From the NCBI GenBank assembly GCA_046056395.1, contig CM100124.1, positions 623,968 through 687,967 on the forward strand: a stretch of DNA of 64,000 nt, in the 5' to 3' direction. The notes under the pieces are model-generated. The model saw nothing but the letters and a program-made list of their open reading frames with translations. It made no database searches and was not told the origin of the DNA. The DNA is from Mugilogobius chulae (Eukaryota). The translations under genes and the position numbers were made by a program. Shown here piece by piece: positions 11,759 through 63,394 of this stretch. Every line of letters begins with the position of its first letter. Position 1 is the first letter of the stretch.

Positions 11759-12620
11759 GTGAGTTAGACCCAGTTTAGACCTGACTTAGACCTGACTTAG
11801 ACCCACGTTCTGGACCAGAACACCAACATCGCCCGCGTGGAGACCGGCCCGCTGACTTATATCAGACAAGACAATGAGAGGTGAGAAAGACCGGACCTAG
11901 ACCTGACTTAGACCTGGTTTAGACCCACCTACATCAGACAGGACAATGAGAGGTGAGAGAGACCGGACTTAGACCTGGTTTAGACCTGACTCAGACCTAC
12001 GTCCTCGACCAGAACACCAACATCGCCCGCGTGGAGACCGGCCCGCTGACTTATATCAGACAGGACAATGAGAGGTGAGAGAGACCGGACTTAGACCTGA
12101 CTTTAGACCTGGTTTAGACCCACCTACATCAGACAGGACAATGAGAGGTGAGAAAGACCGTACTTAGACCTGACTTAGACCTGGTTTAAACCCACCCACA
12201 TCAGACTGGACAATGAGAGGTGAGAGAGACCGTACTTAGACCTGATTAGACCTGGTTTAGACCCACCTACATCAGACAGGACAATGAGAGGTGAGAGAGA
12301 CCGACTTAGACCTGGTTTAGACCTGGTTTAAACCCACATCAGACAGGACAACGAGAGGTGAGAGAGACCCAGTTTAGACCTGACTTAGACCGCTAGACCT
12401 GGTTTAGACCCACTACATGGACATGAGAGTGAGAAGACCTGACTTAGACCTGGTTGACGGTTTAGACCGGTTTAGACCCACCTACATCGCAGGACAATGA
12501 GAGGTGAGAAAGACCTGACTTAGACCTGGTTTAGACCGAGTTTAAACCCACCTACATCAGACAGGACAATGAGAGGTGAGAAGACTCGACGTAGACCTGG
12601 TTTAGACCTGGTTTGCTATG
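11759..12620. repeat. Tandem array of ~12 copies of the exon-2 3' end plus its splice donor (…ACATCAGACAGGACAATGAGAG|GTGAGA…), embedded in the 11-mer satellite
   Basis: Two long copies (11805-11885, 12000-12080) encode [26 protein letters not shown]|GTGAG in the conserved frame. Shorter copies repeat …TACATCAGACAGGACAATGAGAGGTGAGA…. Confidence 0.85.
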
Positions 12621-13299
12621 ATAAAACTTTATTGTCCATATGAAAACGGAAATTTGCCTTACATATCTGCAACTGCTGCAAGTCCCACATACAACAGACT
12701 TCATTCATCAACATAAAAGATAAAAATACATGAATACATGCGGTAAGATCATGTGTTCTTCCTTTGGTTTAAAAATGTGATGGAACATGACACAAAAGAA
12801 TGTTTAGATTTATTCCTCCTGCTGCAGGGAAATCGAAAACGCCGTCCAGAGAGTAAGAACTCAAACTCATTGTTTAAAACATGATCTGTGTCTGGAGATC
12901 CTGTAGACCAGCCGTTCCCAAACTTTTTGGAGCCGTGCCCCCCCTATTGGCCCATAGATTGCCTGAGGCCCCTCAGTATTATTTCACACTCCATTCAAAG
13001 TTAGTTAGAATGTATATATTTCATATTAGCATTGGGAATCACTGCTGTACCAATGCCACTGTTTTCTTTGTTTGCAAATGAGTGAATGTGCTCTCAAGGG
13101 GAGGTCCTATTTTGGAGCAGATGTTCAGAAGCCTCTGAATCCTGTTCTTTTGTTTAACCGAAAGGCCACAGAACCAAGCCTTACTGCACTAAAGCAGCAG
13201 ACTTTGGATAGTGACTATATAGAACTGCTCCAAGATGTTTCTGTTGACTCCAAAAGAGCTGAGCCTCATCAGAAACACGATTCGTTGTTGCACAAATCT

Positions 13300-13480
13300 A
13301 CTTTCTTAGACCTGGTTTAGACCCACCTCACTCGACAGGACAAGGAGAGATGAGAAAGACCGGGTTTAGGCCTGGTTTAGACCTGGTTTAGACTTGACAT
13401 AGACACACCTTCATCAGACAGAACCACAAGAGGTGAAAAAACAGACTTAGACTTGGTTTAATCCTGGTTCAAGCCTGGTT
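13300..13480. repeat. Degenerate continuation of the donor-copy / 11-mer satellite array
   Basis: Repeats of CCTGGTTTAGAC… with GACAGGACAAGGAGAGATGAGAAAGACC. Confidence 0.6.
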
Positions 13481-13554
13481 TACACCTGGAGATGCATTTT
13501 TCTGTCTTCAGAGCCCGTTTCCTCCCGTGGCAAATTAGATTCATGTTTTGTAGT

Positions 13555-13941
13555 GCTATATTCATATTTTCATCTCTCGTGTCAGAGTCCTGTTTCCTCC
13601 CCTGTGGTCTTGTAGTGTTACATTTATATTTTCTCTCGTGTCAGAGTCCTGTTTCCTCCCCTGTGGTCTTGTTGTGTTATATTCAGTATTTCTCTCTTGT
13701 CAGAGTCCTGTTTTCTCCTCTGTGGTCTTGTAGTGTTACATTTATATTTTCTCTCGTGTCAGAGTCCTGTTTCCTCCTCTGTGGCCTTGTAGTGTTACAT
13801 TTATATTTTCTCTCGTGTCAGAGTCCTGTTTCCTCCTCTGTGGCCTTGTAGTGTTATATTTATATTTTCTCTCGTGTCAGAGGCCTGTTTCCTCCTCTGT
13901 AGTCTTGTAGTGTTACATTTATATTTTCTCTCTCGTGTCAG
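13555..13941. repeat. Tandem array (7 copies, ~60-bp unit) of the exon-3 acceptor site plus first ~16 nt of exon 3 (CTCTCGTGTCAG|AGTCCTGTTTCCTCC…)
   Basis: Each unit repeats a polypyrimidine tract, AG, then AGTCCTGTTTCCTCC. The final unit is the real acceptor. Confidence 0.85.
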
Positions 13942-14137
13942 AGTCCTGTTTCCTCCGCTGCGGATGCTGATGGTGCCTCCGCGTCACTACTGCGTCATCC
14001 TCAATCCCGTTGCCCGCGACGACAACGACCAGGTCCAGTTCGACCAATCAGGGCAGGCCAAGCTGAGACACGCCGACCAGGAGATCCGCCTCACCCAGGA
14101 CCCGTTCCCCCTGTACCCCGGGGAGGAGGTCCAGCAG
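13942..14137 (+). CDS. mvp: MVP coding exon (…[65 protein letters not shown])
   Basis: Matches human MVP [23 protein letters not shown]…[21 protein letters not shown]. Acceptor TCAG|, donor CAG|GTATGA. Phase-consistent with the flanking exons. Confidence 0.9.
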
Positions 14138-14235
14138 GTATGAACCCTCTGTAACCCTCTGTACCCCGCTGTGACCCGGGGAGGTACTGAACCCTCCTGT
14201 ACGTGTCTGAACCCTCCTGTACGTGTGTTTTTCAG

Positions 14236-14358
14236 GACGTGACGCCGCTGCAGATCGTCTTTCCCGACACGGCTCTGAGGCTCCAGGCTCTGCTCGAGTT
14301 CACCGACTCCAAAGGAACCAGAGGACGGCCGGAGACGAGTGGCTCTTCGAGGGACCAG
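14236..14358 (+). CDS. mvp: MVP coding exon (DVTPLQIVFPDTALRLQALLEFTDSKG…[frame change]…[11 protein letters not shown])
   Basis: Matches [42 protein letters not shown]. The 5' part and the 3' part ([12 protein letters not shown]) lie in different frames. That is consistent with one missing nucleotide near 14318-14326 (agaggacggccgg). Confidence 0.75.
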
Positions 14359-15306
14359 GTCTGACTGAGTCCTGCTTTAGTCTGGTTTTAGTCTTGTTTT
14401 AGGGCGTATTCAGACCTATAAAATTTGGTCCGATTTAAACGATCCAGAATTCGTTTTTTCTGACAGTTCAGACTTTTTTTTAGGTCTGAATAAAGACAAG
14501 CGAACTCTGATCCGAATCAAACGATCGGACCGAGACCACCTCTTCAGGTCGGTCTCGGGCTGATTGCAAACGGATTCTGGTGCGGATCACTTATGATCTG
14601 AATACAAACGGCCTCGATCCGAAACGAACACGAAACACATGCTCTTTTTGGACCTGACAAGCCACCGTCACAACGCACAGTCACTAAGCACAATTCTAAG
14701 CACAATTTCCTATCTACACGGTTTATTCTGTTGTCTAGATTTGTCTGAAAACATAAAGATATTTTCTCGCGTTTGTTTCCATCAAATAAAGCACTTTCAT
14801 TTTCAGTCTTAACCCTTCGTGTTTGCACAATGAAACCAAAACAGTAACACTTGGACAGTCTTCTTACCGTGATGGAGTAGAGACGAGGATCCTTACAAAC
14901 CAGATTATCAAATTGCCTCCTTTCCTTACTCGTTTAAATCTATATGTCCAGAAAAATAAGAAAGCAAAGACAGGCTACTGTTCCATTGTGAGCACTGATG
15001 CACCCAGTCCCGCTGGTACAGTGAGTAGTCCGCTGCGTTCACGTCAAATCCCAATGAAATTCATCCTCCCGACGAGCGCCAGGTCTGTGTTTAGTCCCGC
15101 ACAAACCCAGGCTCCTGCCGCCTCACCTCGGGCTCCACACGGGGCTGAAATCACCGCTACCTCTGGACTGGAGTCTGGGTTTGGACCAGTGTCTCGTCCT
15201 GTTTCACTGACAAACAGACCTAATTCTAGTCTATGACAGTAATCAGAAGGTCGTTTATGATAATGAACGAATAACGAGCTGCTACTTTACTATAAAGCCT
15301 AACTTT

Positions 15307-16489
15307 TAGGGCTGCACGATATTAAAAATGTATGCGATATGCGATATGGGCTCTGAGATTGCGATATTCGATATTTTTGCGATATTTATTTTTCACTTAA
15401 GAAATTCTCTGTGCATTTATTTTAAATCGTTATTACACTATTAAAACAATGTGCATATAAACGGCACACGTTCTGTGGCTTTGTAATTGCTTAATTATGT
15501 TATTAACTTATTTTTATTGAAGCGCTGTCATGTTTTAGGACGCTTTTTTCAAGGCTTAGTTGCTGGTTACTCTGAAAATCTGGCAACCCTAGTTGCTACC
15601 TTTACACACGTTTCACGTCTGTCTGTGAACTGAAGATGAGCTTGTGCGTCGTATTAAACGTGCCTGACAGGTCACAGTTTTATCACAACTATAGTTTTTG
15701 AGCGTTTTAAACCATCGCGAGTCACAAGAGTCGTTCTTTAGAGAAGAAGAAGACGAGAACGCAGCGCTAAACACACAGGTATTACACACACGCCTGCTAC
15801 ACACACATAATTACAGGTACACACGCAGGACTTACTTTTGAGATGATGCTGAGGCAGAGGAAAGTTGATCAGAGTGGCGTTTAATCCATTTGCTCCGTGG
15901 TTTATGGTTTGGTTGTGCTGTGTTGTTAGCAATAGATCCGTTGTTAGCAGCGCTAATATGCTAACTCACAGCTAACGTTAACCAAAGACATAACATGCTG
16001 GAATCAAAACGCCACAGCCTGTGAATTTTCCTTTGGTTTTCCGGATTCTAGCGGATCAGTTTGAGGAGTTTGAAGAGTAAAGAAACTTTACGGTGGTCGT
16101 CCTTGTGAGGTTGTTCGAAGCGGCTGCAGTTGTATTTCCCCTTAATGTAGCTTCTGTTTTGAGCCGTCGACATGATAGAAAAACACTTGTCTTGTAAATA
16201 GTCCAGAATTGTCGGGATGCAGTGGTTTTAGGAAAAGGAGTTTGCTGCTTTTGTCTGCGCTCATCTTTTCATCTGTTTACAGTAGTAGTTGCCATCATTC
16301 ACTGCGCCTCGCTCTAGCTTAGCTAAGCGGCAGCAGCAGATTTAAGGTGGCGCGCTTAAGGTGGCGCTGGAGTCAAACCACTCCGCACTAAAAACGGATG
16401 AATAATGCATAAAAAATGTAAGAAATTATCGCACGTGTCAATATCGCGATATCGATATTGATATTTTTTCGATATATTGTGCAGCCCTA
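15307..16489. mobile_element. hAT-like non-autonomous element (~1.18 kb) inserted in an MVP intron
   Basis: Terminal inverted repeats TAGGGCTGCACGATAT… / …ATATTGTGCAGCCCTA. Perfect 8-bp target-site duplication CTAACTTT at 15299-15306 and 16490-16497. Internal CGATAT-rich and (CAGCAG) sequence; no intact transposase ORF. Confidence 0.75.
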
Positions 16490-16792
16490 CTAACTTTTAT
16501 CCAAAAACACTTCTTCCGATTAGCACCGCCCCCTCGTCAGATTTGTCCAATGAGAGCGCTGGTTCTCACATACAGTATGTGTCTGTTTACGTTTTAAAGT
16601 CCACTCTACAGCAGCGCAGTGAGAGTATGCTCCGAACCAACTGAAAAAAATTAAGTCTGGATCGGATTTGGATCAAACAAGCGGACTTTTGCACTTTTCT
16701 GGTCTGAATACACCCTTAGCCCTGTTTTAGCCCTGTTTTAGTCCTGTTTTAGAGCTGGTTCAGTCGTGGTCTTGATCCGGTCTCTGTTCCAG

Positions 16793-16924
16793 GGACCTAT
16801 ATTCCGTGTAAGGAGGTGGTGGTGGTGGAGACGATCAAAGCCACGGTGATCAGAGAAAACCAGGCCATTCGACTGAGAGCGAGGAAGGAAGGAGTGGACC
16901 GGAGCGGAGTGAACCGAGTCACAG
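16793..16924 (+). CDS. mvp: MVP coding exon ([45 protein letters not shown])
   Basis: Matches [45 protein letters not shown]. Acceptor TTCCAG|, donor CAG|GTAAAA. Confidence 0.9.
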
Positions 16925-17004
16925 GTAAAACACGCTGAGAACACGCTGAGAACACGCTAAGAACACGCACACACGAGGGGTATAACGTGTCTGTGTCTCT
17001 GCAG

Positions 17005-17099
17005 GGGAAGAGTGGCTCGTGTCTAAAGTCGGAGCTTATCTGCCCGGAGCTCATGAAGAAGTTATCGACATCGTCAACGCCTTTATCCTCACGGACAAG
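17005..17099 (+). CDS. mvp: MVP coding exon ([31 protein letters not shown])
   Basis: Matches [31 protein letters not shown]. Acceptor TCTGCAG|, donor AAG|GTGAGT. Confidence 0.9.
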
Positions 17100-17215
17100 G
17101 TGAGTCTGGACCAGGACTGGACCAGGTCTGGACCAGGTCTGGACCAGGACTGGACCAGGTCTGGACCAGGACTGGACCAGGTCTGGACCAGGTCTGGACC
17201 AGGACTGAAAAAGGA
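17100..17215. repeat. 11-mer minisatellite (GGACCAGGACT / GGACCAGGTCT) starting at the splice donor
   Basis: Tandem 11-mers directly after GTGAGT. Confidence 0.8.
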
Positions 17216-18177
17216 GGACTAAAACAGGACTAAAACACAGAGCCGGATCTAACCTTTTGCTGGCCCTGAGCTAAAATCAGCTTTGGGGCTCTCCAATCTT
17301 AACCTTTATAAGTCAAGCCAAAGCAGCGTTTAACAAAGACTTTTTCATGATGATTTATAACGACACGCAAAGCGACAGACAAAAATAAGAGTAGACTAAA
17401 TCATATTTCTCAGAATAAAGAGATAATGTAAGATCCTGCCCCTGAAACATTTTCCTTAAATTTGGAGTGGGCTATTTTAGACCAACACACAACGCAGAAT
17501 TTTATTAATATACTGTATGATTGCACCTCATCAAGTTTGACTTAGTGTCAGTGTTTCCAAATGAGGCCCCAGCCCTGTCCCTCTCCCTGTGAGCTCCTCC
17601 TCTGTTCTCTCTTCATGTGCTCACGCTGGAACAGCTGATAAACTGCATCATCGCGCTGGACTTTTTGGACAGAAATACTGAAATTTGAAACTTTTTGGGG
17701 ACAAACAGCCTCATGTTTTATGTGGCTTTTAAAAGAATTCAACATAAATCAGCCGACGTTTAAGTACATCAGCTGTTTGTGTTTGTAGTTCAGTCAATAC
17801 TTGTCCTATTGACACTAATAAAGATTGTCTGAGAGCTTATGAGATATACGTAGAACAGGTATTTTTGTCCAAACTGTTCCCAGAGTCTTTGAGTTGGCGG
17901 TCTGTGCTGAGAATGATCAGACACCTGTTTCAGGAGAAGCGGCTGTGATCCTGTTGTGCCTCAAGAACAGAAGAGGGGAGGTCTATCACGTTTAAGCTTG
18001 TATGATTGGTCAAACAGGTATTATGTACAGCCCAAACCAGAGAGTGAAGCCAACAGACCTGATGACTGGACTGACATAAACTCAAAAAACTATCAGCGCT
18101 CAGAAGGCAGGGCCAAACACAGATGAGGGGCCCTAAGCAACTTGTGTAGTCTGCGTATAGGAAGGTCCGGCTCTGCT

Positions 18178-19112
18178 AAAGCAGGACTAAAGCAGGACTA
18201 AACAGGACTAAAACAGGACTTAAACAGGACTAAAACAGGACTTAAACAGGACTAAACCACGTCTAAAACAGGACTAAACCTGGACTGAAGCAGGACTAAA
18301 ACAGGACTAAAACAGGACTTAAACAGGACTAAAACAGGACTTAAACAGGACTAAACCACGTCTAAAACAGGACTAAACCTGGACTAAAAACAGGACTTAA
18401 ACAGGACTAAAACAGGACTTAAACAGGACTAAACCACGTCTAAAACAGGACTAAATCAGGACTAAAACAGGACTTAAACAGGACTAAACCACGTCTAAAA
18501 CAGGATTAAACCTGGACTAAACAGGACTTAAACAGGACTAAACCACGTCTAAAACAGGACTAAATCAGGACTAAAACAGGACTTAAACAGGACTAAAACA
18601 GGACTTAAACAGGACTAAACCATGTCTAAAACAGGACTAAACCTGGACTAAAACAGGACTTAAACAGGACTAAACCACGTCTAAAACAGGACTAAATCAG
18701 GACTAAAACAGGACTTAAACAGGACTAAAACAGGACTTAAACAGGACTAACCACGTCTAAAACAGGACTAAACCTGGACTAAAACAGGACTTAAACAGGA
18801 CTAAAACAGGACTTAAACAGGACTAAACCTGGACTAAAACAGGACTTAAACAGGACTAAAACAGGACTTAAACAGGACTTAAACAGGACTAAACAGGACT
18901 TAAACAGGACTAAACCTGGACTAAAACAGGACTAAAACAGGACTTAAACAGGACTTAAACAGGACTAAACCACGTCTAAAACAGGACTAAACCTGGACTA
19001 AAACAGGACTAAAACAGGACTAAAACAGGATGAAAATGAGACTAAAACAGGACTATATCAGAACTAAAACAAGACTAAAACAGGACTTAAACAGAACTAA
19101 ACCAGTTCTCTC
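18178..19112. repeat. Minisatellite of the 11-mer family, reverse-complement orientation (AAACAGGACTAAAACAGGACTT…), ~0.9 kb, ending ~10 nt before the exon acceptor
   Basis: Tandem units visible. It is the reverse complement of the GTCCTGTTTTAGTCCTG units seen at 16700-16760. Confidence 0.9.
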
Positions 19113-19124
19113 TCTGGTCCGTAG

Positions 19125-19361
19125 AGGGCGCTGCACGTGCGCGCGCTCCGGCCCTTTAAGGACGCGGGGGGGCGTGACCGTCGTACGGGGGAGGAGTGGC
19201 TGGTCACCATGGCGGACCGAGAGGCTCACATCCCGTCGGTGTCGGAGGAGGTGGTCGGCGTCGTCACGGTAACGACCCTGAGCAGCCGCCAGTACTGCGT
19301 CATCCTGGACCCGGTGGACCAGGCCGGCAACCCGCAGCTGGGCAAGAAGAGGGTCGTCAAG
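19125..19361 (+). CDS. mvp: MVP coding exon ([79 protein letters not shown])
   Basis: Matches [79 protein letters not shown]. Acceptor CCGTAG|, donor AAG|GTAACG. Confidence 0.9.
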
Positions 19362-19784
19362 GTAACGGGGAACTGTCACTCAACCTGTTACACCTGTCAT
19401 TATGCACCTGTCAACCACGCTGCATACAAAGGCTTCGTCTTTTTTCTTGAAATTTGTATGACTGTAATTGCACAACTTTTTATTTAATTTTATTCTCGAA
19501 AAAAAATAAGACTTTTTTGCTATGACTTTATTCTCAAAAAAATCTCGCATTTTTGGGGAGTTTTTTCACTTTATTGTCATATAACTACAACTTTTTAAAA
19601 CTTCAACTTTATTCTCAACTTGCAAGAATGATCTCAAAATGTTTCAAGTTCATTCTCGTAGCCCACGCTTTTTTTTTTTTTCTTGGCTCTAATACTCCTA
19701 ATGTTCGTCTGTGTGATTTCCTTCTTTCTTCTCTCTTTGCTTCTCTGCTGTTCTCCTTTGTCTTTCTTCTTCAGGGAGAGAAGT

Positions 19785-30110: not shown

Positions 30111-30136
30111 TAACCGTGTGTGTTTTTGTGTCGGAG

Positions 30137-30360
30137 CAGTTTGAAGACGAAGAGGACGAAGAGGAGGAGCAGGAGCAGGAAGGGGGCGGGGCCAAGCGCA
30201 GACGCCGCGCCGGGATCCAGCGTCGCCCCGGAGACCGCTGGATGCTGCGCGGGCCCATCGAGTACGTGCCCCCCGCTGCGTGGAGGTGGTACTGCGACGC
30301 GACGCCATTCCTCTGGACGAGAACGAAGGGATCTACGTCCGGGACATGAAGACGGGAAAG
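30137..30360 (+). CDS. mvp: MVP coding exon ([48 protein letters not shown][frameshift][27 protein letters not shown])
   Basis: Matches …[45 protein letters not shown]. The conserved reading jumps -1 at ~30279 (gctgcg^gtggaggtg). The ORF track confirms that the upstream frame runs on as …[13 protein letters not shown]… to a TGA at 30347. A 223-nt alternative start is possible at 30140. Donor AAG|GTCAGT. Confidence 0.8.
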
Positions 30361-31690
30361 GTCAGTGTTTAGACATGATTTAAAAGTCCTTTAAAAGTCC
30401 ACCAAATGTACACCTGACGAGTTAATCCAATCACAACTATCTTTATTTACAAAGCTTTTACAAGAACATTTTACATAGCAGACTTACAGGACAGATTTAT
30501 TTAAAAGGGAACTCCCCAGAAGCTATTTAAGCTTAATAACATACTAATATCTAGAAGTGACTTGTTAGAGGCCCCCTATTGGCCCCCCTATTGGCCCCAA
30601 GATTGCCCAAGACCCCCCAATAATCACTCTATTAAAAATAATTTAGAATGTATTTTTTCTCAGAATAAAATGCAAAAACAGTGGCTGTGGACTTAGTCTG
30701 GATTTAAAAATTAATAACATAAAGTTTTCAAACCCAGTTTTCTGTCATGCTTGTTGTGTGGAGCGCTCCTGAGGCCCCCAGGGGGCCCCGGACCCCACTT
30801 TGGGAATCACTGGTCTAATTTATCCATTTAATATAACCTTATTTTACACCACTAGATGGCATTCACGTGAAATCAAATGTCATGTGGTCAACTTCTGTCA
30901 ATAAAACTATAAAATCAAGATCTAGACTATGCATAAACAGGCTTTATAATAATATTGATATTTTTTGTTAATATTTAATACAATAAAACCAGACTGGGAG
31001 CCAAACATGGACAAACATGGATATATTCATGTTATATTGTTATAACAACATACATATGTGCCAAAATGTTGTGTTTTTTTCTATTAAAGCGGCACTGTGT
31101 AAAAAAATAAAAATAAATAAAGTGATCCCACTTTTGAACACCAGGGGGAGCCTTTCCAATGCATTTTGCCTATCTACCCTGCTGCCATCTAGCGTCAATA
31201 TTCAACATTCCGGCCCGTAATAAAACATTTCAAATAAGTATAAATGTGTCACAATTGATGTGGATTGGTTAACAGTGCTCTCTTAAGTATTCATGTTGTA
31301 AAGAATAAATATGATTTAAATGTTTGTGGACTATATGTGATCATTAAAATTCCTCTCAATCTTACACAGTACAGCCCCTTTAAAAAAACACTGTTGCCAA
31401 AATGTTAGCCAGCACACTGTTGTTATTTTTTTTGTTTTTACGATTATATTGTGACTGATAATCACGATTATCGATTAACCGAATAATCTTCACATCCCTG
31501 GGGACTAATTTGTATGAACAGACACTCTCTCTGTCTTTCTTTTCCCATCTGCGTCGTGTGTAAAAGCTCACGGTAGGCTTTAGATAAAAAAAGGTACAGC
31601 TCCCCGATAACTGAAGAGGGAGGAGACAGATCGCTCAAAATACAACATGTTCTTGATTCCCTTGCCCTTTACTCTGTCTCTCTGTTTCAG

Positions 31691-31925
31691 GTTCGCGCGG
31701 TGATCGGACACACCTACATGCTGACCCAGGACGAGGAGCTTTGGAACAAGATTCTCCCGGCCAACGTGGAGGCTCTGCTGGCGTCTCCTCTGGACCCTCT
31801 GGCCGATCGCTCCGACAGGAACCGGGACGCGCAGCAGCTTCCGCGAGACAAAACCCGCGTGGTGTCGTACCGATGCCTCACAACGCCGCTGTGGCAGGTG
31901 TACGACTACAGGAGAAGAAAGCACG
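31691..31925 (+). CDS. mvp: MVP coding exon ([61 protein letters not shown]…; the 3' end is frame-disrupted)
   Basis: Matches [30 protein letters not shown]…DPLADR…[27 protein letters not shown]. The last ~50 nt (cgaTGCCTCACAACGCCGCTGTGGCAGGTGTACGACTACAGGAGAAGAAAGCACG|GTGGGT) differ from the conserved frame by three 1-nt indels, net -1. The downstream tandem copies read …[17 protein letters not shown]|GT in the correct frame. Coordinates within 31681-31741 are ±1 nt, because my reading of that displayed line and the ORF track disagree by one position. Confidence 0.75.
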
Positions 31926-32430
31926 GTGGGTTTAACACGTTAACACGCTTTAGGTACGTCACAACGCGGCTGTGCAGGTGTACGACTACAGAGAGACGGT
32001 TTAACACGCTTTAGTACGTCACAACGCGGCTGTGCAGGTGTACGACTACAGGGAGAAGAAAGCACGGTGGGTTTAACACGTTTAACACGCTTTAGTACGT
32101 CACAACGCCGCTGTGCAGGTGTACGACTACAGGGAGAAGAAAGCACGGTGGGTTTAACACGTTTAACACGCTTTAGTACGTCACAACGCGGCTGTGCAGG
32201 TGTACGACTACAGAGAGAAGAAAGCACGGTGGGTTTAACACGTTTAACACGCTTTATTACGTCACAACGCCGCTGTGCAGGTGTACGACTACAGAGAGAA
32301 GAAAGCTCGGTGGGTTTAACACGTTTAATACGCTTTATTACGTCACAACGCCGCTGTGCAGGTGTACGACTACAGGGAGAAGAAAGCACGGTGGGTTTAA
32401 CACGCTTAACACGCTTTAGTACGTCACAAC
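31926..32430. repeat. Tandem array (~6 copies, ~80-bp unit) duplicating the exon 3' end plus splice donor plus the first ~35 nt of the intron (GTCACAACGCCGCTGTGCAGGTGTACGACTACAGGGAGAAGAAAGCACG|GTGGGTTTAACACGTTTAACACGCTTTAGTAC)
   Basis: Direct tandem copies; each retains a GTGGGT donor and the conserved MVP codons. Confidence 0.9.
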
Positions 32431-33359
32431 AAAATAAAATAAATTAATAAATAAATAAATTTAAATATTATCATGATGTTAGAACCTTGGAGAGTCTCTA
32501 CCATTTTTCTTTTTTTCTTTACATAATAAATGCATTTCTTTAATCTGGGATGTTTTAGACCAGCAAGTCCATTCATTTCAAATTTTTGCCAAATTGCTTT
32601 CTAGTGGGGGCCCCAGCGCTCTTCGCCCTCCTAAACTGCCCTTTGCTCCGCCACTGCTCCCTCTGTACACTATGCTCACACACACACGGCTGTTGTTACA
32701 GAGCCGCGAGGATGCAGGATATTAGATCAAGTTAATTCTGTAGATAACCACACATTTTATTCAAATACTTTTATTGGGCTCTGTGCAGTTGGCTTGTTTT
32801 CGTTCAAAATACTACATCCTGTACATACAACCACTTCCTGTTCAATTCTCCTTTAGTTTTCACTACATCAGTTTAAAACTAATAAATCCTCTTTAGATCA
32901 GACAGTTGTGGTGAATGTTACAGAAAACATGTTAAAGACTTTACATATCAGAGGAATATTTCACCAGAGACATGACGTGTGAAAGAGACTAACGCTAACA
33001 GGAAGTGGTCGTATGTACAGAAGTTAGATATTTTGAACAAACACAAGCCAACTGAAGTTCCGTGCACAGAGACTATTCCCTATAAAATTGTCACAGAAAC
33101 CACCGTCCCCAATAGCGGGTAGGGCATCACCTGCTCTGGGGACACCAAGCCGAGCTGTCCCGCGTCCTTATATCACGAGTGACAGAAAAGTCTGATCTAG
33201 ACAGAAACATTTTTTATTATCTAACTAGTAGTCTAATTTAGAAGGGTTCTAATTTCAACAAGAAGGATCTTGTTGAAATTAGGCTGAATCAAGTTTAAAA
33301 CATTTTCAAACATGTGAATAAGTCATGGAAAATCATAAAATACAACCCTGTGGTCCAGA

Positions 33360-34331
33360 GGTGGTCATACATGTTATTACACGTGTTATTACATGTGTTA
33401 TAACTGTTGTTTCAGGTTAGAGATGGTCGTCGTGTTATTACATGTGTTATAAAGTTGTTACAGGTTCAGAGCTGGTCGTACGTGTTATTACATGTGTTAC
33501 AACTGTTGTTTCAGGTTCAGAGATGGTCGTACGTGTTATTACATGTGTTACAACTGTTGTTTCAGGTTCAGAGATGGTCGTACGTGTTATTACATGTGTT
33601 ACAACTGTTGTTTCAGGTTCAGAGATGGTCGTACGTGTTATTACATGTGTTACAACTGTTGTTACAGGTTCAGAGATGGTCGTACGTGTTATTACATGTG
33701 TTTATAACTGTTATTACAGGGTTGTTTTCGGCCCGGAGCTGGTCGTACGTGTTGTTAACATGTGTTATAACTGTTGTTACAGAGTGGTTTTCGGCCCGGA
33801 GCTGGTCGTACGTGTTATTACATGTGTTATAAACTGTTGTTTCAGGTTCAGAGCTGGTCGTACGTGTTATTACATGTGTTATAACTGTTATTACAGGGTT
33901 GTTTTCGGCCCGGAGCTGGTCGTACGTGTTATTACATATGTTATAACTGTTATTACAGAGTGGTTTTTGGCTCGTAGCTGGTCGTACGTGTTATTACATG
34001 TGTTATAACTGTTATTACAGAGTGGTTTTGGGCTCGTAGCTGGTCGTACGTGTTGTTACATGTGTTTATAACTGTTATTACAGAGTGGTTTTCGGCCCGG
34101 AGCTGGTCGTACGTGTTATTACAAGTGTTATACCTGTTGTTACAGAGTGGTTTTTGGCTCGTAGCTGGTCGTACGTGTTATTACATATGTTATAACTGTT
34201 ATTACAGAGTGGTTTTTGGCTCGTAGCTGGTCGTACGTGTTATTACATGTGTTATTACTCTTGTTTCAGAGTGGTTTTCGGCCCGGAGCTGGTCGTATGT
34301 GTTATTACATGTGTTATTTCTGTTATTACAG
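33360..34331. repeat. Tandem array (~16 copies, ~60-bp unit) duplicating the acceptor site plus first ~25 nt of the next MVP exon (…TGTTATTACAG|AGTGGTTTTCGGCCCGGAGCTGGTC…)
   Basis: Later units contain the exact exon start AGTGGTTTTCGGCCCGGAGCTGGTCGTAC. Earlier units are diverged (…TTTCAGGTTCAGAGATGGTCGTAC…). The last unit is the real acceptor. Confidence 0.9.
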
Positions 34332-34529
34332 AGTGGTTTTCGGCCCGGAGCTGGTCATGCTCGGTCCGGACGAACAGTTCACGGTTCTCTCTCTCTCCGG
34401 GGACAAACCGAAGCGAGCCAACGTGATCAAAGCCGTGTGTCTGCTGCTCGGACCGGACTTCTGCACCGACGTCATCACCATAGAAACGGCCGACCACGCC
34501 CGCCTCCAGCTGCAGCTTGCCTACAACTG
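34332..34529 (+). CDS. mvp: MVP coding exon ([66 protein letters not shown])
   Basis: Near-identical to human [66 protein letters not shown]. Acceptor TTACAG|; the donor is the non-canonical-looking TG|GTACTC. Confidence 0.9.
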
Positions 34530-35607
34530 GTACTCAACACACACACACACATCTGAAAACACACCCTGGACACTCACATGAACAACACTCATGCATCCGA
34601 AAACAGATGAATTTAAAAGAAGTAATTCTATTTTTTATTTAAAAAAAGGTTCAAAGCTAAATATATGTTAACTCTAGAATGGATATTTGAGTTACTGTAG
34701 TTTCTGGACTATAAGACGCTACTTTTTTCACAAGTTTTGAACACTGCAGCTTTACAAAAATGCAGCAAAATTACAAATTCTCTTACTTACTATTAACAAG
34801 TGCGGCCTATATATGTATTTTTTTCATTTTTCTTATTTAAATCTCATTGATGCGGCTTATATTCAGGTCCGCTCAATAGTGTGGAAATTACGATATGTAT
34901 TGTAATGTATTGGTAAAATTGTACAACATGTAAATGCACTTGTATTCTGAGTTTGAGGGTAGATATGTGACGCTGTAAGAAGGGTGTAATAAGCTTAAGC
35001 TTCAGCCTACACCTTTTCTGTTGACTTTGTTTATATTTTTTATGTTTGCTAACATATATATATTGGATATATACAACGATATTATTCAACCTAAATAAAC
35101 TCTTTCATTCATTCATTCAAGTGAAGGACTGGGTCTTGGCGTGTTTCCCAAGAAGATATTGGCTAAAATAGATATCTTTTCTGTGTTAAATATAGTGTTA
35201 AATATAGTTTATCCTTTATTTATCCAGGAAGGTCTCATTGAGATACATTATCTCTTCTTCCAGGTAGTTCTGGTCGAGAAAAGCAGCCGATCAGTACAAA
35301 AATAAGATACAGACAAACATACAAACATGCACAATAAATTATTTCAGAGCAGATTTAAAAACATTGGCAATGTTCTGCAAAAAATATCTTATAACAGACA
35401 GAAAAGTGCAACTGGAGTGGACCTGCCAAGTTCAGCCATTCAGCGCGCTGCTTTTGACTGTCAATGAGAAATACAATATCTTAGTCACACTGCTGTGTTC
35501 ATCAGCCAAAATCTACTCATTTACAGCTAAAAAGAGTCAGCTTTAATGTTATCCGTTCCAGTTAGATTCAGTCTGTGAGAGTCCATAATAAATGTGTTTG
35601 TGTTCAG

Positions 35608-35752
35608 GCACTTTGACGTGAAGAGTCCGGTGAGCGCTGAACACGCCGCCGCGCTCTTCTCCGTCCCAGACTTTGTGGGCGACGCCTGTAAAGCCATCGC
35701 CTCCAAGATCAGAGGAGCTGTGGCGTCGGTGCAGTTCGACGACTTCCACAAG
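35608..35752 (+). CDS. mvp: MVP coding exon ([48 protein letters not shown])
   Basis: Matches [48 protein letters not shown]. Acceptor GTTCAG|, donor AAG|GTGAGA. Confidence 0.9.
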
Positions 35753-35830
35753 GTGAGAACGAGACAAGGACGCGAGGAGAGAGAGTTTTTATCCTTTTAA
35801 TCTCACTGGAAACTCTCCTGCTCCCGTCAG

Positions 35831-36042
35831 AACTCAAACCGGATCATCTGCTCGGCCGTGTTCGGTTTCGACGAGAAGGTCCACATCCGGCCGTCGCTGG
35901 AGTTCGCTCAGAACCGTCTGGTCATCAGCAGCGTCGACATCCAGTCTGTGGAGCCTGTGGACCAGAGAACCAGAGACGCCCTGCAGAAGAGCGTCCAGCT
36001 GGCCATCGAGATCACCACCAACTCTCAGGAGGCGGCTGCACG
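35831..36042 (+). CDS. mvp: MVP coding exon ([70 protein letters not shown][R])
   Basis: Matches NSARIIRTAVFGFE…[44 protein letters not shown]. Acceptor CGTCAG|, donor CG|GTGAGG. Confidence 0.9.
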
Positions 36043-36480
36043 GTGAGGAGAGAGGGAGGAGAGGAGAGGAGAGAGGAGGGAGGGAGGTAGGGAGGGAGGA
36101 GAACCAGAGACGCCCTGCAGAAGAGCGTCCAGCTGGCCATCGAGATCACCACCAACTCTCAGGAGGCGGCCGCACGGTGAGGAGAGAGGGAGGGAGGGAG
36201 GGAGGGAGGAGGAGAGGAGAGAGGGAGGAGAGAGGGAGGAGAGAGGAGAGGGTGGAGGAGAGAGGGAGGAGGGAGAGAGAGGGAGGATAGAGTAGAGAGA
36301 GAGGAGAGGAGGGAGGGAGGAGAGAGGGAGAGAGAACCAGAGACGCCCTGCAGAAGAGCGTCCAGCTGGCCATCGAGATCACTACGAACTCTCAGGAGGC
36401 GGCCGCACGGTGAGGAGAGAGGGAGGAGAGAGGGAGGGAGGAGAACCAGAGACGCCCTGCAGAAGAGAGTTCACCTGGCC
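36043..36480. repeat. Intron start carrying 2.5 extra tandem copies of the exon 3' end plus donor (GAACCAGAGACGCCCTGCAGAAGAGCGTCCAGCTGGCCATCGAGATCACCACCAACTCTCAGGAGGCGGCCGCACG|GTGAGG), separated by purine-rich (GAGGGAGG)n
   Basis: Copies at 36101-36183 and 36336-36418, plus a partial copy at 36446-36480 that runs directly into the next exon's acceptor. Confidence 0.85.
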
Positions 36481-36524
36481 AGAGATTCTCAAAATAACCA
36501 TGTGACCGTTTTTTGTGTTTTCAG

Positions 36525-36641
36525 TCACGAAGCCGAGCGTCTGGAGCAGCAGGCCAAAGGAAAACTGGAACGACAGAGAATCACCGACCAGGCCGAGGCC
36601 GAGAGAGCCAGGAAAGAGCTGCTGGAGCTGGAGGCCATGAG
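36525..36641 (+). CDS. mvp: MVP coding exon ([38 protein letters not shown])
   Basis: Matches [38 protein letters not shown]. Acceptor TTTTCAG|, donor AG|GTGAGA. Confidence 0.9.
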
Positions 36642-36759
36642 GTGAGAACCAGGACTGAACCAGGACTAAAACAGGACTAAAACAGGACTGAACCAGGACT
36701 AAAACAGGACTGCACCTGGACTAAAACAGGACTGCACCAGGACTAAAACAGGACTTACC

Positions 36760-37590
36760 CCGGGCTCACACTGCATCCAGTCCAACTCCGGTGCAGCCGC
36801 CTTTACTAAACTTGAAAAGTCTGAGAGTGGCTCACACTCGTACAGTCCAGTCCGGTGTCTCTGGTACGGCCAATCCGGCGCTCCCAAAACGTTTCGTTTG
36901 TTTCAAATTTTGGTCAGACGCCAGAGTGCACCGGAGCCCTTTTTGATGAAGTTGTGAAAACAAGACACGATAAACAGGAAACCAAGCGAGCACGGGTGAA
37001 GTGAATCCGGTAGTTTTCTAAATAAAATCATTACGTTACCACTGATAATACAAAATATGTCAAAACTCGACATATACATGATTATATAACACACAGGGTG
37101 TAAATTAACCTCCCGTGCTTGTCCATAGTGGGAGAAAAATCAAACAGAAAATGAACTGGCGTTAAATCAGCCTAAAACTCGGCGCCTGTGTTCTTTGTTT
37201 ACATAAACATGTGTCTGTGATCGTGTAATCTCCCAGGTTGAGCTGAACCTCTGTGAGTTCGGGGTCTCTGAGGTTGGCAGCAGCAGGACTGTAGACCACC
37301 ACAGCTAATGAGAGTCACCCACCGTAGCTAGATCGGTCCGGTGGCTGCACCGGAGTTGGACTGGATCAGTGTGAGCCCGGGGTGAGGCCTGTACTACGAA
37401 CTGAACTTATCCTTGATAAGTTTCTCTTATCCTGGTCTGGAGCAGGTTATGAGTTTGTCTCATGTTGCCATAGAGATCTGTCCTGATAGGACGTGATCCT
37501 GTTTCGTAGGACCAGACCAGGTTTAACCCAGAACTTACCTCGCTAAACCCCAAATCTAGCTTCGTAGTACAGGACTCTGCTCTGAAGCTT
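36760..37590. mobile_element. Composite repeat: an element with ~45-bp terminal inverted repeats (CCCCGGGCTCACACTG…CAGTCCAACTCCGGTGCAGCC) plus an adjacent copy of the dispersed repeat seen at 6130-6340
   Basis: 36760-36805 and 37325-37384 are reverse complements of each other. 37385-37590 is the reverse complement of the 6150-6330 repeat. Confidence 0.5.
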
Positions 37591-37599
37591 TACATACAT

Positions 37600-38523
37600 G
37601 ATATATATTTTTGTCAGTGCGGCTTGCGGTTGTCGAGCTTTATTAATATATTTTGTGTTTTGTCAGTGCTGCTGTGGAGCTTTAATAATAATATATTTTG
37701 TGTTTTGTCAGTGCTGCTGTGGAGTTTTAATAATAATATATTGTGTGTTTTATCAGTGCTGCTGTGGAGTTTTAATAATAATATATTGTGTGTTTTATCA
37801 GTGCTGCTGTGGAGTTTTAATAATAATATATTTTGTGTTTTATCAGTGCTGCTGTGGAGCTTTAATAATAATATATTTTGTGTTTTATCAGTGCGGCTGT
37901 GGAGTTTTTATAATAATAATATATTTTGTGTTTTATCAGTGCTGCGGTGGAGCTTTAATAATAATATATTTTGTGTTTTATCAGTGCTGCTGTGGAGCTT
38001 TAATAATAATATATTTTGTGTTTTATCAGTGCTGCTGTGGAGTTTTAATAATAATATATTTTGTGTTTTGTCAGTGCTGCTGTGGAGCTGTTATAATAAT
38101 ATATTTTGTGTTTTATCAGTGCTGCTGTGGAGCTTTAATAATAATATATTTTGTGTTTTGTCAGTGCTGCTGTGGAGCTTTAATAATAATATATTGTGTG
38201 TTTTATCAGTGCTGCGGTGGAGCTTTAATAATAATATATTTGTATTTTATCAGTGCTGCTGTGGAGCTTTAATAATAATATATTTTGTGTTTTATCAGTG
38301 CTGCTGTGGAGCTTTAATAATAATATATTTTTGTGTTTTGTCAGTGCTGCTGTGGAGCTTTAATAATAATATATTTTGTATTTTATCAGTGCTGCTGTGG
38401 AGCTTTAATAATAATATATTTTGTGTTTTGTCAGTGCTGCTGTGGAGCTTTTATAATAATATATTTGTATTTTATCAGTGCTGCGGTGGAGCTTTAATAA
38501 TAATATATTTTGTATTTTATCAG
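37600..38523. repeat. Tandem array (~20 copies, 46-bp unit) duplicating the acceptor site plus first ~15 nt of the next MVP exon (…GTGTTTTATCAG|TGCTGCTGTGGAGCTTTAATAATAATATATTTT…)
   Basis: The unit is the real acceptor TATTTTATCAG|TGCTGCGGTGGAG (38513-38536). The ORF-track ORFs at 37598-38559 read through this repeat. Confidence 0.9.
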
Positions 38524-38650
38524 TGCTGCGGTGGAGAGCACCGGAGCGGCCAAAGCTGAAGCTCAGTCCAGAGCAGAAGCAGCTCGGATCCAGGGAGAAG
38601 CCGCTGTGGAGGAGGCCAAGCTGAAGGCCGAGGCCCAGAGGATCGAGGCT
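38524..38650 (+). CDS. mvp: MVP coding exon ([42 protein letters not shown])
   Basis: Matches [42 protein letters not shown]. Donor GCT|GTGAGT. Confidence 0.9.
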
Positions 38651-38731
38651 GTGAGTTTAAAACCTACATCTGCACATTTAAGCCCTTCCTCTCTCTGATT
38701 GGCTGCGCTCTGCTGGGTCATGTGACTTTAG

Positions 38732-38920
38732 GAGGCGGAGCTTCAGCGTCTGGCCCAGGCTCGTGAGCAGGAGCTGAGTTATAAGAAGAACATGGACCTT
38801 CTGGAGGTGGAGAAGCAGCAGAAACTGTCCCAGATCGAGACCACCAAGTTCAGCGAGCTGGTGAAGAGCCTGGGCGCCGACACGCTGAGGGAGATGGCCA
38901 GAGCGGGGCCGGAGCTGCAG
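38732..38920 (+). CDS. mvp: MVP coding exon (EAELQRLAQAREQELSYKKNMDLLEVEKQQKLSQIETTKFSELVKSLGADTLREMARAGPELQ)
   Basis: Matches [63 protein letters not shown]. Acceptor TTTAG|, donor CAG|GTGAGC. Confidence 0.9.
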
Positions 38921-39039
38921 GTGAGCGCGCACAAACAACACGCACAAAAACACGCACACAAACAAGCAGACGAAACAAGAGAATCACAGGACACAACACG
39001 CACAAAACACGAATACACAGACACCGCACGAGGACAAAC

Positions 39040-39095
39040 ACGCTGAGGGAGATGGCCAGAGCGGGGCCGGAGCTGCAGGTGAGCGCGCACAAACG
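39040..39095. repeat. Duplicate of the preceding exon's 3' end plus donor (CGCTGAGGGAGATGGCCAGAGCGGGGCCGGAGCTGCAG|GTGAGCGCGCACAAACGACACGCACAC)
   Basis: Exact copy of 38884-38945. Confidence 0.85.
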
Positions 39096-63350: not shown

Positions 63351-63394
63351 GCACAAGACCAACTGCTCCCCCCGCACATCTCCGTGATAGTGTG

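What the first reader, a model, noticed from the sequence alone, without database searches (positions are those of the whole stretch)
11759..39095. Many MVP exon-intron junctions are tandemly amplified, giving arrays of supernumerary splice donors and acceptors
Donor-side arrays (exon 3' end + GT…) are present as follows:
- ~12 copies after the first coding exon (11759-12620, 13300-13480);
- ~6 copies after the exon ending at 31925 (31926-32430);
- 2.5 copies after the exon ending at 36042;
- 1 extra copy after the exon ending at 38920.

Acceptor-side arrays (polypyrimidine tract + AG + first 15-25 nt of the exon) are present as follows:
- 7 copies before the exon at 13942;
- ~60 copies before the exon at 23096;
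- ~16 copies before the exon at 34332;
- ~20 copies before the exon at 38524.

The stop-codon region is also triplicated in the 3'UTR satellite.

This pattern is systematic across one gene. It is not a set of random minisatellites. It implies a mechanism that seeds amplification at splice junctions, for example replication slippage or unequal exchange between junction-associated 11-mer satellites. It also creates dozens of decoy splice sites that the spliceosome must discriminate, or that give rise to repeat-containing isoforms. I am not aware of this being a described general feature of MVP genes.
Basis: seen in the sequence. Interest (0 to 1): 0.85.

Follow-up and report, generated by a model that had tools for sequence, protein, structure and literature searches.

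The report
Tandemly amplified splice junctions in goby MVP
In the yellowstripe goby, eight intron ends of the major vault protein gene have been copied head-to-tail up to about 58 times, so real splice sites sit beside rows of look-alike decoys; this looks like a by-product of repeat-filled short fish introns, not something special to this gene.

Summary
The window is Mugilogobius chulae DNA. MVP (+ strand, 11595-41556, 16 coding exons) carries tandem arrays whose units contain a splice site plus 5-80 nt of exon. Counts including the authentic site: E1 donor 11, E2 acceptor 7, E7 acceptor about 58, E9 donor 6, E10 acceptor about 17, E12 donor 3.5, E14 acceptor 20, E15 donor 2. The start-codon and stop-codon regions are also duplicated. 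These arrays make up about 28% of MVP intron DNA.

- It is not MVP-specific. An SRCR gene on the minus strand of the same window has a 13-copy donor array and a 13-copy acceptor array.
- Atlantic herring MVP has the same architecture, built on (AC)n/(TG)n.
- Three repeat-poor fish MVP loci lack it.
- Array-free goby introns are only 78-98 nt, and simple repeats abut most donors.

The best explanation is slippage or unequal exchange at unstable repeats on intron boundaries, which captures exon edges; selection then removes duplications inside exons. No splice-specific seeding is needed, though a uniform null is rejected (P=3e-6).

Decoy usage is untested because no RNA data were available. The closest precedent is the human F7 intron-7 VNTR. 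Seven 1-nt frameshifts are probably assembly errors.

The parts
11595..41556 (+). Major vault protein (MVP) gene of Mugilogobius chulae. It has 16 coding exons with GT-AG introns: E1 11595-11758, E2 13942-14137, E3 14236-14359, E4 16793-16924, E5 17005-17099, E6 19125-19361, E7 23096-23221, E8 30140-30360, E9 31691-31925, E10 34332-34529, E11 35608-35752, E12 35831-36042, E13 36525-36641, E14 38524-38650, E15 38732-38920, E16 41428-41556 (stop TAG).
   Evidence: tblastn and manual curation. The exon set is the same as in C. esox. Annotated M. chulae proteins P0089 and P0121 match the window, including frameshift-derived residues. dN/dS is 0.04-0.09.
11733..12614 (+). E1 donor-side array. Units of 71/122/194 bp consist of 27-80 nt of the exon-1 3' end, then GTGAGA, then three 11-mers (AGACCTGGTTT family). 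There are 10 donor copies here including the authentic one at 11759, and one degenerate copy at 13350.
12616..13299 (.). Unique 685-bp segment that interrupts the E1 donor-type array; array remnants resume at 13305-13475. It contains a dispersed repeat (12936-13015, similar to 30580-30653), so it was probably inserted later.
13545..13960 (+). E2 acceptor-side array, 59 bp x 7. Each unit is a polypyrimidine tract, then CAG, then the first 24 nt of exon 2. The last copy is the authentic acceptor at 13942.
19725..23095 (+). E7 acceptor-side array, 54 bp x about 57, with a 162-bp higher-order period. Units are the last 54 nt of intron 6 ending in TTCTTCAG|GG. The first unit (19758-19800) also carries 24 nt of exon 7. 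A 76-nt spacer (22965-23040) precedes the authentic copy.
31878..32430 (+). E9 donor-side array, 81 bp. Each unit is about 50 nt of the exon-9 3' end, then GTGGGT, then (TTTAACACG)2. There are 6 donors including the authentic one at 31926, plus 1 degenerate copy.
33352..34356 (+). E10 acceptor-side arrays. The distal subtype is 51 bp (about 7 copies). The proximal subtype is 62 bp (10 copies including the authentic one at 34332) with a 249-bp higher-order period. Each unit is (GTGTTATTACA)3-like sequence, then CAG, then the first 25 nt of exon 10, followed by GTACGT.
35966..36490 (+). E12 donor-side array. Each unit is 75 nt of the exon-12 3' end, then GTGAGG, then a (GGAGR)n tract. Donors lie at 36043 (authentic), 36177 and 36410. 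A partial fourth exon copy lies at 36443-36490.
37644..38536 (+). E14 acceptor-side array, 45 bp x 20. Each unit is TTTTGTRTTTTRTCAG plus the first 13 nt of exon 14. All 20 copies keep AG. The authentic copy is last, at 38524.
38893..39104 (+). E15 donor junction (38921) and one extra copy 158 bp downstream (donor at 39079, core identical). A 12-mer repeat (CGCACAAAAACA) lies between them.
11455..11620 (+). Start-codon region (ATGTCTAAGAAGTCAG) present twice, at about 11461 and at 11595, with a 22-bp x 3.8 array between the two copies.
41539..41771 (+). Stop-codon region (GAAACGAATAGAGAGGGACCGGGACAGGAC) present three times, as an 82-bp unit in the 3' UTR satellite.
17104..17207 (+). Example of a simple repeat at an intron boundary: the 11-mer GTCTGGACCAG x 9.5 starting 5 nt after the E5 donor. 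Similar tracts follow the donors of E1, E3, E4 (16929-16968), E7 (23226-23713), E9, E10 ((AC)n), E12, E13 (36646-36755) and E15. An 11-mer x 85 (18176-19105) ends 20 nt before the E6 acceptor.
63390..63657 (-). Neighbouring SRCR-domain gene, donor-side array, 21 bp x 13. Each unit is the last 8 nt of the SRCR exon (CTGCACAG) followed by GTAGAACACACAC.
   Evidence: Pfam SRCR E=1.4e-9, with the profile end coinciding with the exon end.
60474..61185 (-). Neighbouring SRCR gene, acceptor-side array, 53 bp x 13. Each unit is TTTCTGTTTGTTTCAG plus the first 37 nt of an SRCR exon. The authentic copy is the last one, at about 60510.

Best explanation
The arrays are junction-anchored minisatellites, that is, higher-order repeats. 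They are a by-product of very high tandem-repeat turnover in short introns whose ends are occupied by unstable simple repeats.

Proposed steps:
1. The gene had minimal introns of about 65-100 nt, with simple repeats directly flanking the splice sites. Boundary repeats of this kind are a known teleost habit.
2. Replication slippage or unequal exchange occurred between such a repeat tract, or another microhomology, and a similar short patch inside the adjacent exon. This duplicated a segment made of exon edge, splice site and intron repeat.
3. Once two copies existed, unequal exchange expanded them into arrays.
4. Purifying selection removed duplications lying wholly inside exons. It tolerated those whose extra copies fall on the intron side. 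The functional site is therefore always the copy contiguous with the exon: the 5'-most donor or the 3'-most acceptor.
5. Later insertions lengthened some introns.

The extra donors and acceptors are presumably silent decoys. Donors would be bypassed by preference for the most upstream 5' site, acceptors by exon definition. Any decoy use would introduce premature stop codons.

What is shown: steps 1 and 4, and the architecture of the arrays. What is inferred: steps 2, 3 and 5, and the silence of the decoys.
For: - Every array unit contains a splice site plus exon edge, and the authentic copy is always the terminal one contiguous with the exon.
- Array-free introns of the same gene are minimal: I2 98, I4 80, I11 78 and I14 81 nt, against 370-560 nt in C. 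esox.
- The intronic parts of the I9 donor unit (32 nt) and acceptor unit (33 nt) both break at GTACGT and reconstruct a 65-nt intron.
- I12 is entirely arrays.
- The 685-bp unique piece in I1 interrupts the array and carries a dispersed repeat.
- With 80-nt introns, 9.9 of 12 arrays are expected to span a junction; at least 8 are observed.
- The intronic part of the junction units examined contains a short-period repeat: 11-mers, TTTAACACG, GTGTTATTACA, GGAGR and CGCACAAAAACA in the goby, and AC in the SRCR donor array and throughout herring.
- Microhomology at breakpoints: in goby E7, GGGGA and TTCCTTCAG occur in both intron and exon. In herring E1, (AC)n runs into the exon patch AACACCAAC.
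- The pattern is not gene-specific: SRCR gene arrays and herring MVP arrays at E1, E2, E3 and E9.
- It is present only in the two tandem-repeat-rich loci (35.9% and 53.2% tandem repeats), not in loci with 1-8%.
- The herring locus lies 0.6 Mb from a chromosome end.
- Repeats at teleost intron boundaries are documented (PMC4691745).
- The gene is under purifying selection (dN/dS 0.04-0.09, the same as other fishes), so the arrays coexisted with a working gene.
- Precedent for silent tandem 5' pseudo-sites: the human F7 IVS7 VNTR (PMC1557585).
Against: - If the long unique intron segments (16.5 kb) already existed when the arrays formed, junctions are over-represented. P=2.7e-6 on present-day lengths, and P=0.003 even under an intermediate model.
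- Only I1, I8, I13 and I15 show dispersed-repeat evidence for later insertion.
- Intron 7 is also long in C. esox.
- Microhomology is clear for only some breakpoints.
- There is no RNA evidence that the decoys are silent.
- Generality rests on one 64-kb window plus one herring locus.
- The assembly has indel errors, so exact copy numbers and copy-to-copy differences are uncertain.
Confidence: 0.62

Rival explanations
1. A mechanism tied to splicing or transcription itself seeds duplication specifically at exon-intron junctions. Candidates are R-loops, polymerase pausing, or chromatin boundaries at exon ends.
For: The uniform-seeding null on present-day intron lengths is rejected: 1.2 expected against at least 8 observed, P=2.7e-6. 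The intermediate model is also rejected, P=0.003. In both goby and herring MVP, essentially all arrays with period of 20 nt or more inside the gene are anchored at a junction. The start-codon and stop-codon regions are also duplicated.
Against: Start and stop codons are not splice sites, so the common factor is the boundary of coding constraint, not splicing. Large arrays also occur far from any exon (47700-53753, 43042-44329, 54654-55412). The minimal-intron model predicts the observed fraction. The repeat types differ between species (11-mers against AC) but always sit at the intron boundary, which points to the repeats as the seeds.
Confidence: 0.12
2. The arrays are selected, functional elements. 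Possible roles are splicing regulators or decoy-exon buffers, or amplified complementary boundary elements that bridge intron ends as (AC)m-(GT)n introns do.
For: Boundary complementarity exists in some introns: I5 duplex z=-4.2, I10 (AC...GT) z=-3.4, I9 unit against unit z=-2.8, reconstructed I9 hairpin z=-2.4. Decoy cores are well preserved. Boundary repeats have a demonstrated splicing role in zebrafish (PMC4691745).
Against: I1, I6, I12 and I13 show no complementarity (z from -0.2 to +1.1). The arrays are lineage-specific and absent from other fishes with a normal MVP. Copy preservation is explained by recent expansion and homogenisation. Decoy use would give premature stop codons, for example TAA TAA TAA in the E14 unit and TAA after the E9 decoy donors.
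Confidence: 0.1
3. MVP is a decaying pseudogene in this goby, so junction duplications and decoy sites accumulate without cost.
For: Seven 1-nt frameshifts lie in the coding exons: two in E1, one in E3, one in E8 and three in E9. The deposited annotation cannot produce a full-length protein.
Against: dN/dS against four fishes is 0.036-0.085, the same as among those fishes. The inferred goby branch value is about 0.08. There are no in-frame stops in any exon, and all 30 splice sites are canonical. All seven lesions are 1-nt indels, which is typical of PacBio RSII consensus error; the published assembly is a 29x RSII and Illumina hybrid (PMC7782490). The herring and SRCR arrays show the same architecture independently.
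Confidence: 0.06
4. Assembly artefact: the arrays are spurious expansions produced by the assembler.
For: The assembly is error-prone (1-nt indels in exons). Indel-rich copies occur in the E1 array (11% indels). Errors cluster at the first copy of the E1 and E9 arrays.
Against: The arrays show structured divergence: 162-bp and 249-bp higher-order periods, 51-bp and 62-bp subfamilies, and an insertion splitting the E1 array. Assemblers usually collapse repeats rather than expand them. The same architecture is present in the independent, high-quality herring chromosome assembly.
Confidence: 0.05

Closest known systems
Human F7 intron 7 37-bp VNTR, whose first unit spans the exon 7/intron 7 boundary (Borensztajn et al. 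2006, PMC1557585)
   Same: It is a head-to-tail minisatellite in which the terminal unit is contiguous with the exon. The authentic 5' splice site is therefore followed by several identical pseudo-sites. In F7 these are functional but silent, because the most upstream site is selected.
   Different: F7 is a single donor-side case with a handful of copies. Here 8 of the gene's 30 junctions are affected, on both donor and acceptor sides, with up to about 58 acceptor copies, plus the start and stop regions. The authentic site in the acceptor arrays is the most downstream copy, and the F7 scanning model does not address that. Silence of the decoys is not shown here.
(AC)m-(GT)n structured introns of teleosts (Lin et al. 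2016, PMC4691745)
   Same: Simple repeats sit directly at the 5' and 3' intron boundaries in fish. The herring MVP introns fit exactly, with GTA(AC)n after donors and (TG)nCAG before acceptors. Goby I10 is of the AC...GT type. This provides the 'junction-associated repeats' that seed the arrays.
   Different: That paper describes dinucleotide repeats and RNA bridging, not duplication of the splice junction itself. Most goby arrays are built on 11-mers of the same orientation at both intron ends and show no complementarity.
Intron creation from tandem duplications or tandem arrays that carry splice signals. This covers the AGGT-duplication model (e.g. PMC4974935, PMC2891723) and Zhuo et al. 2007, which I recalled from memory. 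Only that paper's title phrase was seen, among papers returned by the search.
   Same: Tandem duplication of a segment containing splice signals yields extra usable donors and acceptors.
   Different: No new intron is created here. All 15 intron positions are shared with C. esox. The duplications enlarge pre-existing introns.
Internal tandem repeats that remodel exon-intron structure in human segmental duplications (De Grassi & Ciccarelli 2009, PMC2812944)
   Same: Tandem repeats overlap exon-intron units inside genes.
   Different: Those repeats add or remove whole exons in young paralogues. Here only exon edges are copied, and the coding sequence is unchanged.

Membership tests
Minisatellite spanning an exon-intron boundary (F7 IVS7 type) | Head-to-tail tandem units of about 10-200 bp | tested here: met
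   TRF periods are 45-194 bp with 2-59 copies and 77-97% matches.
Minisatellite spanning an exon-intron boundary (F7 IVS7 type) | The terminal unit is contiguous with the exon, so each unit carries exon edge plus splice site | tested here: met
   Junction probes spanning at least 6 nt on both sides find 1-19 extra copies at 8 junctions. This is also visible in the sequence. The E7 units carry at most 5 nt of exon, except the first unit.
Minisatellite spanning an exon-intron boundary (F7 IVS7 type) | Pseudo-sites identical or nearly identical to the authentic site | tested here: met
   Identical 9-mer donor cores at E9 (5 of 6 copies), E12 (3 of 3) and E15 (2 of 2). At E1 the decoys are GAG|GTGAGA against the authentic GAG|GTGAGT. 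At E14, 4 of 20 acceptor cores are identical and all 20 keep AG.
Minisatellite spanning an exon-intron boundary (F7 IVS7 type) | Pseudo-sites are silent in vivo; only the exon-contiguous site is used | not testable with these tools
   No M. chulae transcript was found in the protein or contig collections.
Minisatellite spanning an exon-intron boundary (F7 IVS7 type) | Copy number is polymorphic (VNTR) | not testable with these tools
   Only a single assembly is available.
(AC)m-(GT)n structured introns | AC repeats next to the 5' splice site and GT repeats next to the 3' splice site of the same intron, able to pair | tested here: inconclusive
   Herring MVP meets this. In the goby, I10 (z=-3.4), I5 (z=-4.2) and I9 (z=-1.9 to -2.8) show boundary complementarity. 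I1, I6, I7, I12 and I13 do not.
Intron gain by tandem duplication | An intron at a position absent from orthologues | tested here: not met
   Each of the 16 goby exon peptides aligns to a separate exon in C. esox, most of them end to end, so the exon-intron structure appears the same.
Major vault protein gene | Vault repeat and MVP shoulder domains; orthology to vertebrate MVP | tested here: met
   85-88% identity to teleost MVPs. Pfam PF01505, PF17794-6 and PF11978 hit P0089 and P0121.

The most novel reading that the evidence does not exclude
In tandem-repeat-rich teleost genomes or chromosome regions (goby, herring), unstable simple repeats at intron boundaries systematically generate junction-anchored minisatellites. 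If so, amplification of splice-junction segments is a major, so far undescribed route of intron growth; here it accounts for about 28% of MVP intron DNA. It would also routinely produce genes in which the spliceosome must bypass tens of fully formed tandem decoy sites (branch point, polypyrimidine tract and AG, or an identical 5' site). The acceptor arrays are the notable case, because the correct site is the last of up to about 58. That would be a natural genome-wide test bed for the rules of 3' splice-site choice and exon definition.
Probability: 0.3. Interest if true: 0.65.

Novelty: new variant of a known kind. Interest (0 to 1): 0.45.

Why it matters
- If the gene is expressed normally, as its strong purifying selection implies, this locus is a natural experiment in splice-site selection. 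It contains eight arrays of sequence-identical or near-identical decoy donors and acceptors in one conserved gene. The acceptor arrays cannot be explained by the 5'-to-3' scanning shown for human F7.
- It shows a concrete way introns grow: by amplification of their own boundaries.
- It shows how such arrays break automated annotation. The deposited M. chulae annotation splits MVP into at least two models and translates the 54-bp array as protein.
- It warns that an apparently gene-specific oddity is a regional or genomic repeat property.

Tried and rejected
- MVP-specific phenomenon. Rejected after finding donor-side and acceptor-side junction arrays in the SRCR gene on the minus strand, and after finding that MVP in three other fishes lacks them.
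- Pseudogene. Considered because of seven frameshifts. Rejected as the main reading because of dN/dS and the assembly technology.
- Intron gain or introner elements. Rejected because all intron positions are conserved.
- Evidence that the long unique intron segments are transposable elements. ORF listing of intron 7 found nothing recognisable. Self-BLAST of the window found dispersed copies for only four segments. The timing of intron lengthening therefore stays unresolved.
- Fetching the M. chulae contig itself and other goby MVP loci. The look-up of encoding contigs has no record for P0089 or P0121. No other goby MVP appeared in two homology searches. The arrays therefore could not be dated.
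- A fuzzy-regex copy counter misbehaved. It was replaced by Hamming scans.
- General intron-end complementarity as an explanation for the arrays. It was found for I5, I9, I10 and I11 only, and not for I1, I6, I12 or I13.
- MaxEnt scoring was not possible because no model tables were available. Identity of the core motifs was used instead.

Full report
**Source and gene.** The window is teleost DNA carrying the major vault protein gene on the + strand. Two annotated proteins of Mugilogobius chulae (yellowstripe goby) match the window translation: P0089 (WMY93_011145) and P0121 (WMY93_011147). Both reproduce residues that arise only from frameshifts in this sequence ([51 protein letters not shown]), so the source is that species' assembly (taxonomy). 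I mapped 16 coding exons with canonical GT-AG introns, from the start codon at 11595 to the TAG ending at 41556. The exon set is the same as in the Champsocephalus esox orthologue.

**Checking the observation.** Scans with junction probes gave these counts, authentic site included:
- E1 donor: 11 copies, 10 of which keep GT.
- E2 acceptor: 7.
- E9 donor: 6.
- E10 acceptor: 10 of a 62-bp type plus about 7 of a 51-bp type.
- E12 donor: 3 plus a partial fourth.
- E14 acceptor: 20.
- E15 donor: 2.
- E7-type acceptor motifs: 58.

Many decoys have cores identical to the authentic site. The stop-codon region occurs three times.

One correction concerns the E7 array. Its 54-bp unit is the last 54 nt of intron 6 with at most 5 nt of exon. 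Only the first unit (19758-19800) includes 24 nt of exon 7, and a 76-nt spacer separates the array from the true acceptor. Intron 2 (98 nt) itself looks like a degenerate duplicate of the E2 donor junction. Junction-derived arrays total about 7.8 kb, or 28% of the 27.3 kb of MVP intron DNA (and the coordinates above).

**Is it specific to MVP?** No.
- On the minus strand the window holds an SRCR-domain gene (Pfam PF00530, E=1.4e-9; the profile end coincides with the exon end).
- That exon is followed by a 21-bp x 13 array of CTGCACAG|GTAGAACACACAC, which is the last 8 nt of the exon plus the donor.
- Another SRCR exon is preceded by a 53-bp x 13 array of TTTCTGTTTGTTTCAG plus its first 37 nt.
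- Atlantic herring MVP shows the same architecture on a different repeat. E1 donor x 3 and E2 donor x 4-5 have units of exon edge plus GTA(AC)n. E3 acceptor x 6 has units of (TG)nCAG plus 47 nt of exon. A 41-bp x 44 array starts exactly at the E9 donor.
- C. esox (all 16 exons), Poecilia latipinna and Osmerus mordax (E1-E7) have none. Poecilia is a short-read assembly, so absence there carries less weight.
- Tandem-repeat coverage is 35.9% in the goby window and 53.2% in the herring locus. It is 7.5%, 2.4% and 1.2% in the other three.
- The herring locus lies 0.6 Mb from the end of a 25.3-Mb chromosome.

**Is the junction association more than chance?** It depends on the null model.
- Present-day intron lengths with arrays collapsed (18.0 kb): uniform seeding of the observed unit sizes predicts 1.2 junction-spanning arrays out of 12. 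At least 8 are observed (P=2.7e-6).
- All introns at 80 nt: the expectation is 9.9.
- Intermediate model: the expectation is 3.1 (P=0.003).

Evidence favours short ancestral introns:
- The four array-free short introns are 78-98 nt, against 370-560 nt in C. esox.
- I12 consists only of arrays.
- The intronic parts of the I9 donor and acceptor units both break at GTACGT and reconstruct a 65-nt intron.
- The 685-bp unique piece in I1 splits the array and carries a dispersed repeat.

For the other long intron segments the timing is unresolved.

**Mechanism.** Simple repeats abut the splice sites.
- 11-mers of the AGACCTGGTTT/AGTCCTGGTTC family, AACACGCTGAG, TTTAACACG, (AC)n, GGAGR or a 12-mer start within about 8 nt of 10 of 15 donors.
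- The junction units examined contain such a repeat in their intronic part.
- Teleost introns are known to carry AC repeats next to the 5' splice site and GT repeats next to the 3' splice site (Lin et al. 2016, PMC4691745). The herring MVP introns are of this type, and goby I10 is as well.
- Breakpoints show microhomology where they are legible. In goby E7, GGGGA and TTCCTTCAG occur in both exon 7 and its intron. In herring E1, (AC)n runs into the exon patch AACACCAAC.

I therefore infer the following sequence. Slippage or unequal exchange between a boundary repeat and a similar patch in the exon duplicates a segment of exon edge, splice site and repeat. Arrays then expand by unequal exchange. 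Selection removes duplications inside exons but tolerates those whose extra copies lie in the intron. This explains why the common denominator is the boundary of coding constraint, including start and stop codons, and not splicing as such.

**Gene integrity.** Seven 1-nt indels disrupt E1 (two, compensating), E3, E8 and E9 (three). dN/dS against four fishes is 0.036-0.085, the same as among those fishes. There are no in-frame stops. The published assembly is a PacBio RSII (29x) and Illumina hybrid (PMC7782490). I read the indels as consensus errors. Their concentration in the first copies of the E1 and E9 arrays is a caveat about local assembly accuracy.

**Consequences.**
- Use of a decoy site would quickly hit a stop codon. 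The E14 unit reads TAA TAA TAA, and a TAA follows the E9 decoy donors.
- For donor arrays, the human F7 intron-7 VNTR shows that the most upstream of identical 5' sites is used and the pseudo-sites stay silent (PMC1557585).
- For acceptor arrays the authentic site is the last of up to about 58 complete 3' sites. Exon definition is the likely discriminator, but nothing here tests it.
- The deposited annotation was misled. P0089 and P0121 translate the 54-bp array in two frames and split the gene.

**Verdict.** It is a regional or genomic repeat phenomenon with a known single-gene precedent, not an MVP-specific mechanism. Its main value is as a natural test bed for splice-site choice and as an example of intron growth by boundary amplification.

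Noticed in passing
window ~11686 and ~11724 (E1), ~14318 (E3), ~30278 (E8), 31873-31912 (E9): Seven 1-nt indels break or locally shift the MVP reading frame. The decoy copies of E1 and E9 further downstream keep the intact frame. These are probably consensus errors of a PacBio RSII hybrid assembly, clustered at the edges between unique and repeated sequence.
   Followed up: partly
window 19846-20211 and 22623-22964 (54-bp array): The deposited M. chulae annotation splits MVP into at least two gene models (WMY93_011145 and WMY93_011147). It translates the intronic 54-bp array as protein: GRDVSSSLCSSDVLVSSS repeats in one model and GEMFRPLFAPLMFSSLLQ x10 in the other. It also skips E4-E5.
   Followed up: yes
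window 63744-63915 (- strand): An in-frame 42-bp x 4 repeat (SELQGAPFTQDSAV) lies inside an SRCR-domain exon. A second SRCR exon near 60300-60510 ends prematurely. The gene may be damaged, or this may be further assembly error.
   Followed up: partly
window 47700-53753; 45647-46181; 43042-44329; 61372-62719: The intergenic region downstream of MVP is 56% tandem repeats. It includes a 6-kb 23-bp satellite, a CT-rich tract, an 11-mer x 58 array, and a 23-bp x 59 array whose unit (CTGCACAGGTACATC...) resembles the SRCR donor junction.
   Followed up: no
window introns I5 (17100-19124), I10 (34530-35607), I9 (31926-34331): The two ends of some introns are complementary. Duplex z-scores are -4.2 (I5), -3.4 (I10, GTACTCAACACACAC... 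against ...GTGTTTGTGTTCAG) and about -2 to -2.8 (I9). This is reminiscent of the (AC)m-(GT)n bridged introns of teleosts.
   Followed up: partly
L003 (Clupea harengus LR535879.1, 24.66-24.69 Mb) 9440-22400: In herring MVP almost every exon examined (E1-E9) is flanked by (TG)n upstream and (AC)n downstream. The locus is 0.6 Mb from the chromosome end. The annotated herring protein P0004 starts in E2 and reads through the E9 donor into the 41-bp array. Exons 10-16 were not found within 10 kb downstream.
   Followed up: partly
window 57114-57473 (- strand); 37426-37579 vs 6167-6310; 40514-40801 vs 7620-7925; 12936-13015 vs 30580-30653: An ORF at 57114-57473 (- strand) resembles, by eye, a retrotransposon reverse-transcriptase fragment, although Pfam gave no hit for it. 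There are also three pairs of dispersed repeats, showing that some unique intron segments are interspersed-repeat insertions.
   Followed up: partly
protein P0030 (Syngnathus acus MVP-like): The annotated pipefish protein contains the MVP N-terminal region (exons 1-5 equivalent) twice in tandem. This suggests a multi-exon tandem duplication or an annotation artefact at that locus.
   Followed up: no
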